This document shows positions 22,357 through 27,088 of a DNA stretch of 64,000 nt, piece after piece. Source of the DNA: an uncultured Latescibacterota bacterium. Its GTDB lineage: Bacteria; Latescibacterota; UBA2968. The position numbers and the translations under genes were made by a program. Below the pieces are notes generated by a model, which saw nothing but the letters and a program-made list of their open reading frames with translations, did not search any database and was not told the DNA's origin. The DNA is taken from positions 3,534,896 to 3,598,895 of the forward strand of contig OY282377.1 in assembly GCA_958295785.1 (NCBI GenBank), given 5' to 3'. How positions within the stretch are numbered: the stretch's first letter is position 1; every line of letters starts with the position of its first letter.

Positions 22357-22629
22357 GGTCGTGCTAGACGGGGAGATAGCGGTGCCCTGTAGCCCGCAAT
22401 CCGCTATAGCGGGGTCGAATTCCACGTCTGAGAACCGGTATTTTGGATCGCGGTCAACGAGTAAGCAGTGTTGATCGTCAGGTCCTGCGCAACGTGCCTA
22501 TGCCGAATCCCGTCAGGACCGGAAGGTAGCAGCGGTAAGCAAATCGGCGCGTGTGCCGCAGGGGCACCTGGCAGGAGCCCGCGCTCGTTGAACGCCCTGG
22601 GATAGCGGTTCGAAGCGCGGTGCACGGCC
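22357..22629 (+). ncRNA. ffs: Signal recognition particle RNA, long (Bacillus-type, Alu-domain-containing) form
   Basis: GUCGUGCUAGACGGGGAGAUAGCGGUGCCCUGUAGCCCGCAAUCCGC and GUCAGGACCGGAAGGUAGCAGC and GUGUGCCGCAGGGG and GGUGCACGGCC blocks closely match B. subtilis scRNA from memory; T-run follows; upstream of dnaX as in Bacillus. Confidence 0.75.
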
Positions 22630-22665: not shown

Positions 22666-24396
22666 ATGTCTTACACGGTAATGGCGCGAAAGCGGAGGCC
22701 ACAGGCATTTGAAACCGTGGTCGCACAAAGCCATGTAACCACCACATTGCAAAACGCCATTCGGCTGGGGCGCGTGGCGCAGTCCTACTTGTTTTCCGGG
22801 CCGCGGGGAACGGGCAAGACCACCACGGCGCGCTTGCTCGCTATGGCACTCAATTGCGATCAGGGGCCGACCTCTGAACCGTGTGGACAGTGTGCTTCGT
22901 GCGTTGCCATTCGGCAGGGCAACAGCATGGATGTGCTAGAGATCGACGGGGCTTCAAACCGCGGGATCGACGAAATCAGACAATTGCGCGAAGAGGTGGG
23001 ATACGCGGCTTCGCAGGGCAAGCGCAGGGTTTATATCATCGACGAAGTTCACATGCTAACCACCGAGGCGTTTAATGCCCTGCTCAAAACGCTCGAAGAA
23101 CCGCCAGCGCACGTCGTGTTTGTGTTTGCGACGACCGAATCCCACAAGGTGCCCGAAACGATTTTGTCGCGCTGCCAGCGATACAATTTTCGGCGCATTC
23201 CGGCCGCGGCAATTGTGGAAGAACTCAAAATAGCCGTGGCCGAAGAGGGCGTAAAAGCCGAAGAATCCGCGCTGTTTTTGATCGCCCGAAAAGCCGATGG
23301 CGGCATGCGCGATGCGTTGAGCTTGCTCGATCAGGTCATTGCCTTTTCAGAGGCCGGCATTGCCGAAGATGCGGTGCAAAATTTACTGGGGCTGATTCCC
23401 CGAGATGTGTATTTCGATCTGACCCAAGCGATTGTGGAGCGGGATGGCAGCCGGGCACTGGGCGTTTTGGATAATCTGATGCGCGAAGGCAGCGACCTCA
23501 GCGAATTTGTGGCGGGTCTGATGGCGCATTTTCGGCATCTATTGGTCGCCCGTGCCGTGGGCAAATTGACAGATGAAAATTTGCCAGAAGCCGATAGCAA
23601 GCAATACACAGAGGTTGCAGCGCAATTTGAAGAGCCGGATCTCGTGCGTATGCTCAATGCCGTGGGCGAGTTGGAAACGCAGATCAGCCGCGTGACCGAG
23701 CCTCGATTCTGGCTCGAATTGACGGTTATGAAACTCGTGCAGATGACGGCGAGCGTGGATTTGCAGGTTTTGATCGGTCGCTTGGAGCAACTCGAGCGCG
23801 ACTTAAAACGCCGTGGAACAGTATCTGCACGCACGCCAGCCGCCATTCGGAACTCGCCCAGGCCCAAAACACCTTCTCAAAACACAACATCGCCCGGGCG
23901 AAACAGCAACATCAGACCAGCACCCCCTCAAAGGGCAACCGATTCCAAACCCCCTCTCGCAGCACAACCGCAGGGTAATGGTCGGGGCGCGTCAGAAACG
24001 CCGCGGATTGCAGAAAACGCACCGCCAATTGTATCCAATGGCAAGCCGCCAGACCCTTCGGTTGTAGAAGACAGGTGGGCGCAACTCGTGCAAGCGGTGA
24101 AAGACAAAAAAATTTCACTGGGCACATTTTTGGATGAAGGCCGCCTGCAATCCCTGGATGGAAAGCGTTTGGTGGTGGCTTTTGAAAAGGACCGCGAATT
24201 TCACGCCAATCAGGTGCGGCGCAACCGCGCATTGGTCGAAGAAGTGGCAGGGGGTGTTTTTGGAGGCACAGTCACCATTTCGTGCGAGGTCGTGTACGAT
24301 AACGACAACGCGCAAATCCCGGAGGAGAAAGGCCCGGAAAACGACGAGCGCGTGCAGATGGTGATGCAGGTGTTCGGCGGGGAAGTGATCGGGTAA
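22666..24396 (+). CDS. dnaX: DNA polymerase III subunit gamma/tau
   Basis: Walker A GPRGTGKTT, zinc module CGQCASC, DEVHML; low-complexity Pro/Ser-rich linker. Confidence 0.85.
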   Translation: MSYTVMARKRRPQAFETVVAQSHVTTTLQNAIRLGRVAQSYLFSGPRGTGKTTTARLLAMALNCDQGPTSEPCGQCASCVAIRQGNSMDVLEIDGASNRGIDEIRQLREEVGYAASQGKRRVYIIDEVHMLTTEAFNALLKTLEEPPAHVVFVFATTESHKVPETILSRCQRYNFRRIPAAAIVEELKIAVAEEGVKAEESALFLIARKADGGMRDALSLLDQVIAFSEAGIAEDAVQNLLGLIPRDVYFDLTQAIVERDGSRALGVLDNLMREGSDLSEFVAGLMAHFRHLLVARAVGKLTDENLPEADSKQYTEVAAQFEEPDLVRMLNAVGELETQISRVTEPRFWLELTVMKLVQMTASVDLQVLIGRLEQLERDLKRRGTVSARTPAAIRNSPRPKTPSQNTTSPGRNSNIRPAPPQRATDSKPPLAAQPQGNGRGASETPRIAENAPPIVSNGKPPDPSVVEDRWAQLVQAVKDKKISLGTFLDEGRLQSLDGKRLVVAFEKDREFHANQVRRNRALVEEVAGGVFGGTVTISCEVVYDNDNAQIPEEKGPENDERVQMVMQVFGGEVIG

Positions 24397-24450
24397 GACG
24401 CAATTAGCTATCGGCTTTTGGCTTTCAGCTGTCAGTCTAAGGAGAAAAAA

Positions 24451-24780
24451 ATGGCAAAAAGCATGGGTGCCATGATGAAGCAGGCTCAAAAATTACAGGC
24501 CAAACTGGCCAAGGTGCAAAAAGAACTGGGGGCAAAAGAGGTCGAGGCAACCTCGGGCGGGGGCATGGTGACGGTGCGGGCGAATGGGCATCAGGAGATT
24601 TTGTCCGTGAAAATCAATCCCGAAGTCGTCGATCCCGAAGATGTGGACATGCTGGAAGACCTCGTGCTGGCAGCGATTCAGCAGGCGCGGGAAAAATCAG
24701 CGGAAATGGCCGAAGCGGAAATGCAAAAAGCCACAGCGGGGCTGATTCCCCCGGGCATGAATATGCCGGGGTTCATGTAA
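24451..24780 (+). CDS. ybaB: Nucleoid-associated protein YbaB/EbfC
   Basis: MAKSMGAMMKQAQKLQ...GGGMVTVRANGHQEILSVKINPEVVDPEDVDMLEDLV; AAGGAG RBS; conserved dnaX-ybaB-recR context. Confidence 0.85.
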   Translation: MAKSMGAMMKQAQKLQAKLAKVQKELGAKEVEATSGGGMVTVRANGHQEILSVKINPEVVDPEDVDMLEDLVLAAIQQAREKSAEMAEAEMQKATAGLIPPGMNMPGFM

Positions 24781-24799
24781 AGGAGAAAGGAGTAACGTC

Positions 24800-25207
24800 A
24801 TGCCAGCGAGACTTTTGGCTGTATTCGTTTTGATGTCGTTCTCAGGCGTTGCTTTTGGTGCTTCATCTCCTTCTTCAACCAATCCAAGTGTTGAAGAAAG
24901 ATTGGCGACACTTGAAACGACCATGAAACTTCAATATGAAGCCTTGAGCAAGCAGATTGAGGCAAATCACCAGGCCACGCTTAAGTTGATTGAGGCGAAT
25001 CACCAGGCCACGCTTAAGTTGATCGAAGTTACGAATAATCGAATTGATACATTGAACAACTGGGTCATCGCTTTATTCGGAGCTATGGTGGCCTGTGTCG
25101 TGGCCGCTGTAACGTATGCGTTAGGGCTTTGGAAAACTCCCAAGAAAGATAAAACCGTGGCAACGGAAGCAAACGCGAACAGGTCAGAAGTAAGCCATAC
25201 CGCGTGA
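24800..25207 (+). CDS. Small protein: signal peptide, hendecad (11-aa) coiled-coil repeats x2, C-terminal TM helix (cassette copy 1, gene A)
   Basis: AGGAGAAAGGAG RBS; KQIEANHQATL repeated; TM WVIALFGAMVACVVAAVTYALGLW. Confidence 0.45.
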   Translation: MPARLLAVFVLMSFSGVAFGASSPSSTNPSVEERLATLETTMKLQYEALSKQIEANHQATLKLIEANHQATLKLIEVTNNRIDTLNNWVIALFGAMVACVVAAVTYALGLWKTPKKDKTVATEANANRSEVSHTA

Positions 25208-25272
25208 TTTGTTGATTGGCATTTATCCGCGCAGATATGAACGCGATCAACCTTTTCACCATAGAGGTAGCA

Positions 25273-25530
25273 ATGGCTGCGACAATTGAAGAATTGGACA
25301 AACGACAAGCGGTTTTAGAAGTTCAACAAAAAACTTTGGAAACCGAACAGCGAACCCCTGCACAAGGGCATACCGACCTTCGGGAACGCCAAACCCGGGT
25401 AGAGGAAACGGATAGGCGAATATTAGAGCAGTTGGCGTTTATCCGCGTTGAGATTGGAGAAGTTAGAACCAATATTAGGGAAGTTAAAACCTTTTTTACT
25501 TGGTTCGTCAGCCTCGTCGTGGCGATCTGA
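25273..25530 (+). CDS. Small coiled-coil protein with truncated C-terminal hydrophobic tail (cassette copy 1, gene B)
   Basis: Start at MAATIEEL after GAGGT RBS; a 30-bp deletion relative to copy 2 creates an early stop after SLVVAI. Confidence 0.4.
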   Translation: MAATIEELDKRQAVLEVQQKTLETEQRTPAQGHTDLRERQTRVEETDRRILEQLAFIRVEIGEVRTNIREVKTFFTWFVSLVVAI

Positions 25531-25688
25531 ACTGAGCATGACCGCGTCTAATTTTGACGCCTGAGAGTCATTTGTGCAGGCGCGAGAATACCGGGAAAAC
25601 GCGCTTACAATGGCCTGGCCTATAAAGGCCAGAACAAAGATGCGAGGATAGAAACGTAGGTGCCCGAAAATGCAAGAAGGAGTACGTC

Positions 25689-26117
25689 ATGCCAGCGAGA
25701 CTTTTGGCTGTATTCGTTTTGATGTCGTTTTCAGGGGGTGCTTTTGGTGCGTCACCAAATCCAAGTGTTGAAGAAAGATTGGCGACACTTGAAACGACCA
25801 TGAAACTTCAATATGAAGCCTTGAGCAAGCAGATTGAGGCGACCCACCAGTCCACACTCAAGCAGATTGAGACGATCCATCTGTCCACACTCAAACAGAT
25901 TGAGGCGAATCACCAGTCCACGCTTAAGTTGATCGAAGTTACGAATAATCGAATTGATACATTGAACAACTGGGTCATCGCTTTATTCGGAGCTATGGTA
26001 GCCTGTGTCGTGGCCGCTGTAACGTATGCGTTAGGGCTTTGGAGAACGCCCAAGAAAGATAAAACCGTGGCAACGGAAGCAAATGCGAACAGGTCAGAAG
26101 TAAGCCATACCGCGTGA
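25689..26117 (+). CDS. Small protein: signal peptide, hendecad repeats x3, C-terminal TM (cassette copy 2, gene A)
   Basis: Identical 5' end and RBS to copy 1; one extra 11-aa unit (KQIEATHQSTL KQIETIHLSTL KQIEANHQSTL). Confidence 0.45.
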   Translation: MPARLLAVFVLMSFSGGAFGASPNPSVEERLATLETTMKLQYEALSKQIEATHQSTLKQIETIHLSTLKQIEANHQSTLKLIEVTNNRIDTLNNWVIALFGAMVACVVAAVTYALGLWRTPKKDKTVATEANANRSEVSHTA

Positions 26118-26182
26118 TTTGTTGATTGGCATTTATCCGCGCAGATATGAACGCGATCAACCTTTTCACCATAGAGGTAGCA

Positions 26183-26455
26183 ATGGTTGCGACAATTGAA
26201 GAATTGGACAAACGACAAGCGGTTTTAGAAGTTCAACAAAAAACTTTGGAGACCGAACAGCGAACCCCTGCACAAGGGCATACCGACCTTCGGGAACGCC
26301 AAACCCGGGTAGAGGAAACGGATAGACGAATATTAGAGCAGTTGGCGTTTATCCGCGTTGAGATTGGCGCGGTCAAAACCTTTTTTACTTGGTTTGTCAG
26401 CCTCGTCGTGGCGATTGGCATTTTGATTGTCGGCCTGTTGAACTATCTGAACTGA
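26183..26455 (+). CDS. Small coiled-coil protein with full C-terminal TM helix (cassette copy 2, gene B)
   Basis: FFTWFVSLVVAIGILIVGLLNYLN tail; near-identical to 25273-25530 otherwise. Confidence 0.4.
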   Translation: MVATIEELDKRQAVLEVQQKTLETEQRTPAQGHTDLRERQTRVEETDRRILEQLAFIRVEIGAVKTFFTWFVSLVVAIGILIVGLLNYLN

Positions 26456-26494
26456 GCATGACCGCTTTGTATTCTTCAACGCTTGGAGTTTCAA

Positions 26495-27088
26495 ATGGCA
26501 TCAGAAGCCATTGAAAAATTGATTGTCGGTTTGAATCGGTTGCCCGGAATCGGCGCCAAATCAGCGCGGCGCATCGCGCTGGATATGCTGACATGGGATA
26601 CGGAAGCGGTGCGCTCACTCGCCGATTTGATGGTCGATGTCAAGACTCGAGTGCGCCGTTGCTCAATCTGTTTTAATCTGACCGAGGTCGAACCGTGTTC
26701 TGTGTGTAGCGACGTGCGGCGAGATCGCTCCCGAGTGATGGTGATCGATTTTATCGGCGACTTGTTGGCATTTGAGCGCACGGGGCTTTATCGCGGGCTT
26801 TACCATGTGCTGGACGGGCGGATTTCGCCCTTGGACGGCGTTGGCCCAGAGGATTTAAATATTTCCCAACTGTTGCACCGCTTGCGCCAGGGGGAAATCC
26901 GCGAAGTGATTTTAGCCAATGGCCCAACAGTCGAAGGCGATGCCACCGCGCAATACCTGTCTCGGTGTTTGGCGCCTTATGAGGTGTCTGTCACGCAAAT
27001 TGCACGCGGGTTGCCCGTGGGCAGCGATCTCGCCCTGGCCGATCAAGTGACCTTGTCGCGCGCGCTGGAAGGACGTCGGGAGTACTAA
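26495..27088 (+). CDS. recR: Recombination protein RecR
   Basis: HhH LPGIGAKSARRIA, C4 zinc finger CSICFN...CSVCSD, Toprim region; GGAG RBS. Confidence 0.85.
   Translation: MASEAIEKLIVGLNRLPGIGAKSARRIALDMLTWDTEAVRSLADLMVDVKTRVRRCSICFNLTEVEPCSVCSDVRRDRSRVMVIDFIGDLLAFERTGLYRGLYHVLDGRISPLDGVGPEDLNISQLLHRLRQGEIREVILANGPTVEGDATAQYLSRCLAPYEVSVTQIARGLPVGSDLALADQVTLSRALEGRREY

What the first reader, a model, noticed from the sequence alone, without database searches (positions are those of the whole stretch)
24781..26470. Conserved dnaX-ybaB-recR operon interrupted by a tandemly duplicated two-gene cassette with variable hendecad repeats
Between ybaB and recR, which are normally adjacent, sit two near-identical copies of a gene pair.
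- Gene A: signal peptide + 11-residue repeats (KQIEANHQATL) + C-terminal TM helix.
- Gene B: coiled coil + C-terminal TM.

The copies differ by exactly one 33-bp repeat unit in gene A (2 versus 3 hendecads). In gene B they differ by a 30-bp deletion that truncates the TM helix in copy 1. This is indel-driven diversification of a repeat protein inside a core operon. The architecture vaguely recalls spanin or other envelope-spanning pairs, but I cannot assign a family.
Basis: seen in the sequence. Interest (0 to 1): 0.6.

Follow-up and report, generated by a model that had tools for sequence, protein, structure and literature searches.

The report
Variable coiled-coil membrane gene array
One small clade of uncultured Latescibacterota carries, inside the housekeeping dnaX-ybaB-recR operon, a fast-changing array of two kinds of small helical membrane-anchor genes of unknown function whose copy number and internal repeat number differ between species and between co-occurring strains.

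Summary
Between ybaB (24418-24780) and recR (26483-27088) lie two copies of a gene pair, 751 and 782 bp long and 96% identical. They differ by four indels of 12, 33, 21 and 31 bp. The last is 31 bp, not 30: it shifts the frame onto a stop and removes most of B1's membrane helix.

Gene A encodes a signal peptide, one long helix with 11-residue repeats, a C-terminal membrane helix and a basic tail. Gene B is a tail-anchored helix with an invariant RERQTRVEETDKRILEQLAFIR motif.

Of 46 related recR loci, only the two closest species carry A/B genes there. In all the others ybaB and recR are adjacent, so this is a lineage-specific insertion.

Nine occupied loci show six architectures, from a single A-B pair to seven ORFs, including in-frame A::B chimeras. 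One sample holds both one-cassette and two-cassette contigs. A proteins carry 1-5 hendecads.

Both genes are under purifying but relaxed selection (dN/dS 0.2-0.5). Neither matches Pfam, NCBIfam, PADLOC, phage, plasmid or PDB entries. Spanin and XhlA membership fail.

The closest analogue, not a homologue, is the Borrelia Bdr family, whose function is also unknown. Related arrays sit in other core operons (trmD|rplS, downstream of rnr). I rate it a moderately interesting new variant of a known kind.

The parts
22666..24396 (+). dnaX (DNA polymerase III tau/gamma), first gene of the host operon
   Evidence: Pfam DNA_pol3_delta2 at 2e-46, plus DnaX_C and gamma3
24418..24780 (+). ybaB/ebfC nucleoid-associated protein (likely ATG at 24451)
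   Evidence: PF02575 at 3e-34 and TIGR00103 at 89.6 bits. The orthologue is called as 109 aa in L083.
24800..25207 (+). Gene A copy 1 (135 aa): signal peptide, SSPSST insert, 2 hendecads, juxtamembrane IEVTNNRIDTLNNW, TM helix, basic/disordered tail
   Evidence: It is identical to database protein P0017, found on a 5.66-Mb contig. A strong AGGAG Shine-Dalgarno sequence follows directly after the ybaB stop.
24955..25023 (+). 33-bp tandem repeat in A1, 2.1 copies, 97% match (KLIEANHQATL units)
   Evidence: Tandem Repeats Finder
25208..25272 (+). A-B intergenic segment. It reads LAFIRADMNAINLF in frame with B, like a degenerate relic of B's own LAFIRVEIGAVKTFF segment, and it ends in a GAGG ribosome-binding site.
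   Evidence: Repeat family D3 and the sequence itself
25273..25530 (+). Gene B copy 1 (85 aa): coiled coil with the RERQTRVEETDRRILEQLAFIR motif and an extra heptad EVRTNIR. The membrane anchor is truncated to 12 hydrophobic residues by a 31-bp deletion and frameshift.
   Evidence: The same allele occurs in L084 and L085.
25531..25688 (+). 158-bp stretch between the B1 stop and the A2 start (25546-25683 is not duplicated). It contains an array-specific 18-nt box (25596-25613, AAAACGCGCTTACAATGG), a small hairpin, and the Shine-Dalgarno sequence of A2.
   Evidence: It is conserved in L084 and L085. The box is shared with the inter-gene spacers of the second A-type array in L081 and is unique in the window.
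25689..26117 (+). Gene A copy 2 (142 aa): same architecture as A1, with 3 hendecads and no SSPSST insert
   Evidence: AlphaFold2 model: helix 27-114.
25826..25928 (+). 33-bp tandem repeat in A2, 3.1 copies, 81% match
   Evidence: Tandem Repeats Finder
26183..26455 (+). Gene B copy 2 (90 aa), full length: coiled coil plus a C-terminal TM segment (residues 66-88), tail-anchored
   Evidence: It is identical to P0100 on the 5.66-Mb contig.
26445..26465 (+). 21-nt right-hand junction (ATCTGAACTGAGCATGACCGC), repeated at 25525-25545. It marks the 3' end of the duplicated unit.
   Evidence: Repeat family D6
26483..27088 (+). recR (likely ATG at 26495), followed by pgsA, pgpA, recA, recX and alaS
   Evidence: TIGR00615 at 232 bits. 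The downstream annotation comes from the orthologous locus L083.

Best explanation
What it is. This is a clade-restricted accessory gene array, not a mobile element and not part of DNA metabolism. An ancestor of one Latescibacterota lineage acquired a two-gene module in the roughly 33-nt ybaB|recR spacer. The module has its own ribosome-binding sites and no terminator-like site, so it is probably read through from the dnaX-ybaB-recR operon (inferred).

How the DNA changes. Since the insertion, the array has been remodelled by homologous processes acting at two scales:
- Slippage or unequal exchange between 33-bp (11-codon) and 21-bp (7-codon) units changes the helix length.
- Unequal crossing-over or gene conversion between whole ~0.8-0.9-kb units changes copy number, homogenises paralogues within a genome, and creates truncations and in-frame A::B chimeras.
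The variation itself is shown. The processes behind it are inferred.

What the proteins look like.
- A is exported by a Sec-type signal peptide. It remains anchored in the inner membrane by its C-terminal helix, with a short basic tail in the cytoplasm. It projects a single alpha-helical, hendecad-type coiled-coil rod into the periplasm. Rod length changes by 11 residues, about 1.6 nm, per unit.
- B is a tail-anchored inner-membrane protein. Its conserved coiled coil faces the cytoplasm.

Most likely function (inference only). A and B oligomerise through their juxtamembrane and TM segments. Together they form a structural, envelope-associated coiled-coil assembly of the same general kind as the Borrelia Bdr proteins.

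The window's state. A-B(truncated)-A-B is one state of this polymorphic array. B1 is probably a crippled or modified copy.
For: Insertion is lineage-specific.
- Only L001 and L002 (RecR 95% and 94% identical) carry A/B genes at this site, out of 46 Latescibacterota/Gemmatimonadota recR loci.
- In the others, ybaB and recR are adjacent.

Inheritance is vertical.
- dS of A and B between cassette-bearing genomes is 0.13-0.39. dS of the flanking recR, pgsA and ybaB is 0.11-0.36.
- The empty-site clade lies at dS 0.6-1.0.

The array is polymorphic.
- Architectures seen: A-B; A-B'-A-B; A-A-A-B plus an extra ORF; A-A-B-B'-A::B; and A-X-B-B-B-B'-A::B.
- L083 (single cassette) and L084/L085 (double cassette) come from the same sample.
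- Hendecad counts among ybaB-recR-type A proteins: 1 (1 protein), 2 (17), 3 (17), 4 (5) and 5 (6).

Paralogues cluster by genome.
- The C-terminal module is 97-99% identical within a genome and 88-92% between species.
- A1 versus A2 in the window has dS 0.05.

The genes are real.
- dN/dS is 0.2-0.47.
- The B motif is invariant.
- Shine-Dalgarno sequences are present.

Topology and structure.
- Hydropathy, the -3/-1 signal-peptidase pattern and positive-inside residues fit the proposed topology.
- AlphaFold2 gives single long helices.

Co-transcription is plausible. The consensus scan found no terminator-like site between the ybaB stop and the recR start other than two weak hairpins at the A start codons.

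The family recurs in other core operons as tandem arrays with unit indels.
- Three B-like genes (119, 112 and 105 aa) lie between trmD and rplS in L090.
- Four A-like genes lie downstream of RNase R in L081.
- A B-like and an A-like gene lie together in L082.
Against: - No function is demonstrated and no homologue has been characterised.
- Topology rests on rules and hydropathy, not on a dedicated predictor or an experiment.
- The B core motif also occurs behind a signal peptide: in the A::B chimeras of L002 and L087, and in P0135 and P0136. Its compartment is therefore not fixed, which weakens the idea of a specific cytoplasmic partner.
- A-like and B-like genes also occur alone in other arrays (L081, L090), so physical A-B pairing is not shown.
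- GC is about 46% in the cassette versus 55-58% in the flanks. This may reflect foreign origin or only the K/E/N/I/T-rich composition.
- Co-transcription is inferred only from the absence of consensus terminators.
Confidence: 0.6

Rival explanations
1. Conflict-driven variable envelope system. Under this reading the length and copy-number variation is adaptive. An example would be inner-membrane or periplasmic exclusion of phage DNA injection, or of other invading machinery, with A's rod length and A:B dosage under diversifying selection.
For: - The array turns over quickly, and copy number differs between co-occurring contigs.
- dN/dS is 3-6 times higher than in the flanking genes.
- The family has a narrow taxonomic range.
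- The products are small membrane proteins, like known superinfection-exclusion factors (my own knowledge, not tested here).
Against: - PADLOC gives only generic coiled-coil noise, and nothing significant for the window proteins.
- dN/dS is well below 1.
- There are no neighbouring defence or phage genes.
- Repeat-number variation is also what neutral slippage would produce.
Confidence: 0.15
2. Remnant of a prophage lysis cassette, either spanin-like or XhlA/holin-accessory-like, that was captured in the operon.
For: - The coil-plus-C-terminal-TM architecture resembles XhlA.
- There are weak hits: PHROG 1193 'hemolysin' at E 9e-5 for B1; Pfam XhlA at 14-16 bits for A and B and 23 bits for the L090 B-like protein; PHROG Rz-like spanin at E 0.017.
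- GC is lower than in the flanks.
Against: - All scores are below the curated cut-off (XhlA gathering score 34.7).
- A has no lipobox and neither protein has an N-terminal anchor.
- No holin, endolysin, integrase or other phage gene lies within +/-4 kb.
- There are no relatives in IMG/VR, in INPHARED phages or in plasmids.
- The dS values indicate the cassette is inherited vertically with its flanks.
Confidence: 0.05
3. Functionless, decaying duplicates. Under this reading the ORFs are evolutionary debris tolerated in an intergenic hot spot, and all the variation is neutral.
For: - B1 has lost its anchor.
- Truncated B' fragments, chimeras and unrelated extra ORFs accumulate at the same site.
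- The family is tiny and lineage-restricted.
Against: - At least one intact A and one intact B are kept in all nine occupied loci.
- dN/dS is 0.2-0.47, with dS up to 0.39.
- The 22-residue motif in B is invariant or nearly so across divergent members.
- All repeat indels in A are multiples of 3 and keep the frame.
Confidence: 0.12
4. Assembly artefact of a repeat-rich region in a long-read metagenome assembly.
For: Tandem duplicates and 33-bp repeats are classic places for mis-assembly.
Against: - The same A-B(truncated)-A-B structure, including the 31-bp deletion and the heptad insertion, is present in two further contigs from another assembly (L084, L085).
- The window's A1 and B2 are identical to proteins deposited from a 5.66-Mb contig.
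- Related architectures recur across several samples.
Confidence: 0.03

Closest known systems
Borrelia Bdr (Borrelia direct repeat) proteins: Pfam PF02524 KID repeat, NCBIfam NF040500 Bdr_N
   Same: - Both are small proteins made of tandem 11-residue repeats (33-bp DNA units) whose number varies between strains and paralogues.
- Both have a C-terminal hydrophobic anchor.
[quoted passage not shown]
- Both form multi-copy paralogous families reshuffled by homologous recombination.
- Function is unknown in both. [quoted passage not shown]
- The cp32-1 Bdr sequence read here shows KID-type 11-residue repeats and a C-terminal TM segment.
   Different: - There is no detectable homology. hhalign probability is 7.5% (A family) and 0.2% (B family).
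- No A- or B-family protein hits the KID repeat or Bdr_N models, whereas the Bdr control scores 70.6 and 93 bits.
- Bdr has no signal peptide and sits on Borrelia plasmids and prophages.
- Here there are two distinct protein types, one of them exported, on the chromosome inside core operons of Latescibacterota.
XhlA (PF10779; PBSX-type lysis accessory protein) and PHROG 1193
   Same: Both are short proteins of about 90 aa with an N-terminal coiled coil and a C-terminal TM segment. There are weak profile hits.
   Different: - Scores of 14-23 bits fall below the gathering cut-off of 34.7.
- There is no holin or amidase neighbour and no phage context.
- There are no relatives in the phage collections.
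Two-component spanins (Rz/Rz1)
   Same: Both are a pair of small envelope proteins, one of which carries a periplasmic coiled coil.
   Different: - The i-spanin has an N-terminal anchor, and the o-spanin is an outer-membrane lipoprotein with a lipobox cysteine.
- A has an AFG|AS signal-peptidase-I-type site, no lipobox cysteine, and a C-terminal anchor.
- B has no export signal.
- There is no lysis cassette.
TIGR04211 'SH3_and_anchor' (YgiM-like) proteins, and generic 'KRID-repeat plus TM' proteins of Magnetococcales/Magnetomorum (P0117, P0118, P0124)
   Same: All share a signal peptide or N-terminal domain, then heptad/hendecad repeats of the xxNKRIDxL type, then a single C-terminal TM segment. 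Sub-threshold hits recur, aligned to the coil-plus-anchor part of the model.
   Different: - Scores of 22-34 bits fall below the cut-off of 65.
- There is no SH3 domain.
- In the profile search, E-values jump from below 1e-30 inside the family to about 1e-5 for these proteins. That points to shared composition and architecture rather than demonstrated common ancestry.

Membership tests
dnaX-ybaB-recR operon (host context) | The three genes are identified by curated models and lie in this order on one strand | tested here: met
   Pfam and NCBIfam hits are above their cut-offs. The same order is seen in 46 related loci.
dnaX-ybaB-recR operon (host context) | ybaB and recR are directly adjacent | tested here: not met
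   The gap is 1705 bp in the window, versus about 33 nt in 16 sister species and short gaps in all more distant relatives.
Two-component spanin (Rz/Rz1) | The i-spanin has an N-terminal TM anchor (type II) and a periplasmic coiled coil | tested here: not met
   A has a cleavable-type signal peptide and a C-terminal TM segment. B has only a C-terminal TM segment.
Two-component spanin (Rz/Rz1) | The o-spanin is a lipoprotein with a lipobox cysteine | tested here: not met
   A's signal peptide ends ...SFSGVAFG|AS, with no Cys. B has no signal peptide.
Two-component spanin (Rz/Rz1) | The genes lie in a lysis cassette with holin and endolysin | tested here: not met
   The neighbours are dnaX, ybaB, recR, pgsA, pgpA and recA. 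The PHROG spanin hits have E of 0.017 or worse.
XhlA (PF10779) | The profile score reaches the gathering threshold of 34.7 bits | tested here: not met
   Scores are 14.1-16.4 bits for A1, A2 and B2, and 23.0 bits for the L090 B-like protein.
XhlA (PF10779) | Short coiled coil plus a C-terminal TM segment | tested here: met
   In B2 the helix spans residues 3-89 and the TM segment spans 66-88.
Bdr family (PF02524 KID repeat; NF040500 Bdr_N) | Matches to the KID-repeat and Bdr N-terminal domain profiles | tested here: not met
   No hit for A1, A2, B1, B2, P0055, P0057, P0080, P0135 or the B-like proteins. The Bdr control scores 70.6 and 93.1 bits. hhalign probability is 7.5% or lower.
Bdr family (PF02524 KID repeat; NF040500 Bdr_N) | Tandem 11-residue repeats of variable number, a C-terminal membrane anchor, and multiple paralogues | tested here: met
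   This is an architectural resemblance only.
Known anti-phage defence proteins (PADLOC-DB) | A significant profile match to a defence-system component | tested here: not met
   A1 has one hit at E 0.007 (LeoC, 14.5 bits). A2, B1 and B2 have none. More repetitive relatives hit only SMC/JetC/LmuB-type coiled-coil regions.
Mobile element or integron-type gene cassette | An associated integrase or transposase, attC or terminal repeats, and presence on phages or plasmids | tested here: not met
   No such genes lie within +/-4 kb. There is no target-site duplication at the junctions. No matches were found in viral, phage or plasmid collections. attC-like structure was not formally modelled.

The most novel reading that the evidence does not exclude
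The A/B family may be a previously undescribed kind of self-contained 'operon-hitchhiking' accessory module. In this reading, small coil-anchor membrane genes carry their own ribosome-binding sites but no terminators or mobility genes. They repeatedly settle in the intergenic gaps of constitutive housekeeping operons (ybaB|recR, trmD|rplS, downstream of rnr). There they expand into arrays and use 7- and 11-residue unit indels and module swapping (signal peptide / B core / A anchor) to tune a length-adjustable trans-membrane coiled-coil assembly. The selective pressure would come from phage or envelope conflict.
Probability: 0.12. Interest if true: 0.7.

Novelty: new variant of a known kind. 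Interest (0 to 1): 0.45.

Why it matters
- The ybaB-recR junction is adjacent in 44 of the 46 related loci examined and, to my knowledge, is conserved widely across bacteria. A polymorphic accessory array wedged into it shows that core operons can serve as expression platforms for fast-evolving genes.
- The family has about 100 members for A and about five 50%-identity clusters for B. It has no annotation in any library searched, and it comes from an uncultured phylum.
- Its variable hendecad number, C-terminal anchors, tandem paralogues and recombination-made chimeras make it a second, independent example of the Bdr-type design, whose function in Borrelia has yet to be discovered (PMC10016077).
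- An exported rod that changes length in steps of about 1.6 nm is also a natural system for asking whether periplasmic or membrane-proximal distances are being tuned.
- If the variation turns out to be neutral, the locus is still a clean natural example of unequal-recombination dynamics, and a strain-resolving marker for these organisms.

Tried and rejected
Searches that found nothing significant:
- Pfam, NCBIfam, PHROGs and PADLOC scans of A1, A2, B1, B2 and divergent relatives gave only sub-threshold coiled-coil hits.
- PDB profile searches with the A and B alignments gave nothing significant.
- IMG/VR scans with A2 and with the B alignment found no relatives.
- INPHARED phage tblastn and PLSDB plasmid blastn found none.
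- JGI metagenome scans with the B and A alignments found none.
- Literature searches for XhlA and for tail-anchored coiled-coil repeat proteins gave nothing directly relevant.

Tests that came out negative or uninformative:
- A-versus-B homology: hhalign of the A family against the pure B family gives 2% probability. The 97% result with alignment A5 is caused by the natural hybrids P0135 and P0136 included in it, so I discarded it.
- Fold search was not run, because both models are single long helices and would match any coiled coil.
- The consensus promoter/terminator scan gave counts close to the shuffled expectation. I use it only for the absence of an obvious terminator.

Look-ups that failed:
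- P0094, the A-type paralogue elsewhere in the window's genome, is not on record in the contig index.
- Two Bdr primary papers are not held in the library.
Full report
**1. What is in the window**

ORF listing, sequence reading and profile searches give the following order on the + strand:
- large SRP RNA, 22359-22627;
- dnaX, 22666-24396;
- ybaB, 24418-24780;
- four small ORFs;
- recR, 26483-27088;
- then pgsA, pgpA, recA, recX and alaS, by orthology with L083.

The four ORFs are A1 (24800-25207, 135 aa), B1 (ATG 25273-25530, 85 aa), A2 (25689-26117, 142 aa) and B2 (ATG 26183-26455, 90 aa). I take the ATG preceded by GAGG as the B start. A longer TTG-initiated frame exists but adds no recognisable feature.

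**2. The duplication**

The two units, 24795-25545 and 25684-26465, are 751 and 782 bp long. They are 96.2% identical over 718 aligned bases and have exactly four indels:
- 12 bp in A1, adding SSPSST after the signal peptide;
- 33 bp, one hendecad more in A2;
- 21 bp, one heptad (EVRTNIR) more in B1;
- 31 bp missing from the 3' end of B1.

It shifts the frame onto an immediate TGA. B1 therefore ends ...FFTWFVSLVVAI, with only 12 hydrophobic residues. It has no 19-residue window above 1.6 on the Kyte-Doolittle scale, whereas B2 reaches 2.6.

A 158-bp stretch (25531-25688) separates the B1 stop from the A2 start; 25546-25683 of it is not duplicated. The 33-bp arrays are the only substantial tandem repeats in the 64 kb.

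**3. The proteins**

A has these parts in order:
- an n-region (MPAR);
- a hydrophobic core of about 12 residues;
- a small-residue -3/-1 site (AFG|AS);
- a conserved NPSVEERLATLET...EALSKQ segment;
- a variable number of KQIEANHQ[AS]TL units;
- a conserved IEVTNNRIDTLNNW juxtamembrane segment;
- a 23-residue TM helix;
- a basic then acidic tail, KTPKKDK....

The positive-inside rule implies the tail is cytoplasmic. The hydrophobic positions in the repeat follow a 3-4-4 spacing (L..I...H...L), which is a hendecad register with His, Gln or Arg at one core position. This is my reading of the sequence, not a program output.

AlphaFold2 run on the family alignment gives one uninterrupted helix from residue 27 to 114, with pLDDT 85-91 in the rod, and a disordered tail. 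B is predicted as one helix, residues 3-89. B has no export signal and its TM segment lies at the extreme C-terminus, so it is a tail-anchored protein by inference. It contains a strikingly conserved segment, RERQTRVEETDKRILEQLAFIR.

**4. Organism and family size**

- RecR is 91-95% identical to RecR of several complete 'Candidatus Latescibacterota' MAG chromosomes.
- A1 and B2 are identical to database proteins from a 5,660,449-bp contig.
- Sequence and profile searches of 5.8 billion proteins recover about 100 A-family proteins with E below 1e-30. There is then a gap to E of about 1e-5, where generic 'KRID-repeat plus TM' proteins appear.
- An exhaustive HMMER search of 1.84 billion cluster representatives with the B profile gives only 11 hits at E of 1e-3 or better, and about five of these are true relatives.
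- Nothing is found in IMG/VR, INPHARED phages, PLSDB plasmids or JGI metagenome contigs.

Both families are therefore tiny, sharply bounded and unannotated.

**5. Comparative test of the 'interrupted operon' claim**

I mapped dnaX, ybaB, A, B, recR and pgsA onto 46 Latescibacterota/Gemmatimonadota recR loci.
- Only the two closest species representatives, L001 and L002, have A/B genes between ybaB and recR.
- Sixteen sister species with RecR 91-93% identical have a spacer of about 33 nt there instead.
- All more distant relatives also have ybaB and recR adjacent.

Among cassette-bearing genomes, synonymous divergence of A and B is 0.13-0.39. That of ybaB, recR and pgsA is 0.11-0.36. The empty-site clade lies at dS 0.6-1.0. 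The simplest reading is one insertion in the ancestor of a shallow clade, followed by vertical descent.

No target-site duplication, integrase or transposase is visible. GC drops to about 46% in the cassette against 55-58% in the flanks.

**6. Variation**

Nine occupied loci show six architectures:
- A-B in L083 and L086;
- A-B(truncated)-A-B in the window, L084 and L085;
- A-A-A-B plus an unrelated ORF that starts with a duplicated recR 5' end, in L001 and L088;
- A-A-B-B'(truncated)-A::B in L002;
- A, an unrelated 150-aa secreted protein, B-B-B-B', then A::B, in L087.

L083, a circular 5.63-Mb contig with a single cassette, comes from the same sample as L084 and L085, which have the double cassette. 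Copy number is therefore polymorphic among co-occurring contigs in that sample.

The truncated, heptad-bearing B1 allele recurs in both other contigs that carry the double cassette, so it is not a sequencing error. The in-frame A::B chimera joins A's signal peptide and N-terminal 63 residues to B's residue 13 onwards. It is intact in two genomes.

Among ybaB-recR-type A proteins the hendecad count is 1 (n=1), 2 (17), 3 (17), 4 (5) or 5 (6). Paralogues resemble each other more within a genome (97-99% in the C-terminal module) than across species (88-92%). A1 versus A2 in the window has dS 0.05. This indicates recent duplication or gene conversion.

dN/dS is 0.2-0.39 for B and 0.24-0.47 for the non-repeat parts of A, against 0.04-0.13 for recR and pgsA. 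That is purifying but relaxed selection, not neutrality.

**7. Other loci of the same family**

- In the genome of L001, a second locus (L081) carries four tandem A-type paralogues of 165-176 aa with EATNKRIDASN 11-residue repeats. It lies downstream of RNase R, and no B gene is present.
- L082 has a B-like gene, a YtxH-like gene and an A-like gene with DATNERI heptads. They lie between a peptidase gene and a SpoU methylase gene.
- L090 has three tandem B-like genes of 119, 112 and 105 aa, differing by whole heptads. They are inserted between trmD and rplS in the ffh-rpsP-rimM-trmD-rplS operon. Their spacers of about 220 nt contain a hairpin element that is also dispersed in L081 and L082, which suggests related genomes.
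- P0135 and P0136 are natural hybrids: a signal peptide, then the B core motif, then repeats, then an A-type anchor.

The family is thus modular. It is prone to tandem expansion, and it is repeatedly found inside housekeeping operons.

**8. Comparison with known systems**

*Spanins.* A has no lipobox and no N-terminal anchor, and there is no lysis context. Membership fails.

*XhlA.* The architecture is similar, but scores of 14-23 bits fall below the 34.7 cut-off and there is no phage context.

*Defence systems.* PADLOC gives only coiled-coil noise.

*Bdr.* The best analogue is the Borrelia Bdr family. Bdr proteins have 11-residue (33-bp) repeats of variable number and a C-terminal anchor. They associate with the inner membrane, form multi-copy paralogues reshuffled by recombination, and have no known function (PMC3303823, PMC10016077; cp32-1 Bdr read).

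It is an analogue only. Bdr scores 70.6 bits on the KID repeat and 93 bits on Bdr_N, while no A/B-family protein hits either model. hhalign probabilities are 7.5% or lower. A and B themselves show no detectable homology to each other.

**9. Interpretation**

*Shown:*
- a lineage-specific insertion into ybaB|recR;
- real coding genes;
- variation in copy number and in unit number at species level, and in copy number within one sample;
- chimeras and truncations made by recombination;
- recurrence of the family in other core operons.

*Inferred:*
- read-through expression from the host operon;
- topology: A's rod periplasmic and anchored in the inner membrane, B's rod cytoplasmic and tail-anchored;
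- coiled-coil oligomerisation;
- a structural, envelope-associated role.

*Not resolved:*
- whether the variation is adaptive;
- whether A and B interact;
- what the assembly does.

**10. Verdict**

The spanin analogy is not. I rate this a new variant of a known kind, namely Bdr-like variable-repeat, membrane-anchored coiled-coil paralogue families. Interest is moderate, at 0.45.

Noticed in passing
L090:5283-7085: Three tandem B-like genes (119, 112 and 105 aa, differing by whole heptads) are inserted between trmD and rplS of the ffh-rpsP-rimM-trmD-rplS operon. They are separated by repeated spacers of about 220 nt. GC is 52% here versus 59% in the flanks.
   Followed up: partly
L081:7389-9687: Four tandem A-type paralogues (165-176 aa, with EATNKRIDASN 11-residue repeats) lie downstream of RNase R and upstream of a 418-aa secreted protein, a TPR protein and a DUF4292 gene. 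This is in the same genome as L001. No B gene is present there. The window's own genome also has such a paralogue (P0094) outside the window.
   Followed up: partly
L002:4548-4973 and L087:6258-6683: An intact in-frame A::B chimera of 141 aa joins A's signal peptide and first 63 residues to B from residue 13 onwards. It is conserved in two genomes and preceded by a truncated B'. It would place the B core motif in the periplasm.
   Followed up: partly
P0135, P0136 (L089:234-842): These are natural hybrid proteins from other contigs: a signal peptide, then the B core motif (RVEETDKRILEQLALIR), then repeats, then an A-type NNWLIALF...VTYALGYWG anchor. The two families evidently exchange modules.
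   Followed up: partly
window:25596-25613: The 18-nt box AAAACGCGCTTACAATGG in the spacer upstream of A2 is unique in the window. It recurs upstream of the A-type genes in L081 (three times) and in L084 and L085. It may be an array-specific promoter or regulatory site.
   Followed up: partly
window:25216-25250 and 26126-26160: The A-B intergenic DNA resembles the internal B segment that encodes LAFIRVEIG... (repeat family D3). The piece upstream of each B gene looks like a relic of a B 3' end.
   Followed up: no
L001:4696-4953 and L088:5263-5475: An unrelated 70-85-aa ORF lies between B and recR, and its start duplicates the recR 5' region (MSMTA...FQMAS). This looks like a second insertion at the same spot, which suggests that the ybaB|recR gap is a hot spot in this clade.
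   Followed up: partly
L087:4536-4988: An unrelated 150-aa ORF with an N-terminal hydrophobic, signal-like segment sits inside the A/B array. It has no Pfam or NCBIfam hit.
   Followed up: partly
L090:5360-5395; also L082:400-435 and 1044-1100; L081:13723-13849: A short hairpin-containing element (…CGTAGGGACAGGCCCCCGTGCCTGTCC…) is dispersed in intergenic regions of several loci. It resembles a REP or MITE element and could supply recombination substrates.
   Followed up: no
window:21548-22627: Two tandem tRNA-Ser genes (CGA and GGA), a tRNA-Ala (CGC) and a full-length large (Bacillus-type) SRP RNA at 177.7 bits lie immediately upstream of dnaX.
   Followed up: no
window:16956-17003: A small AT-rich tandem repeat with a 15-16-nt period and about 3 copies is the only other tandem repeat in the window.
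   Followed up: no
window:24750-26400: GC falls to 45-47% across the cassette, against 55-58% in dnaX, recR and pgsA.
   Followed up: partly
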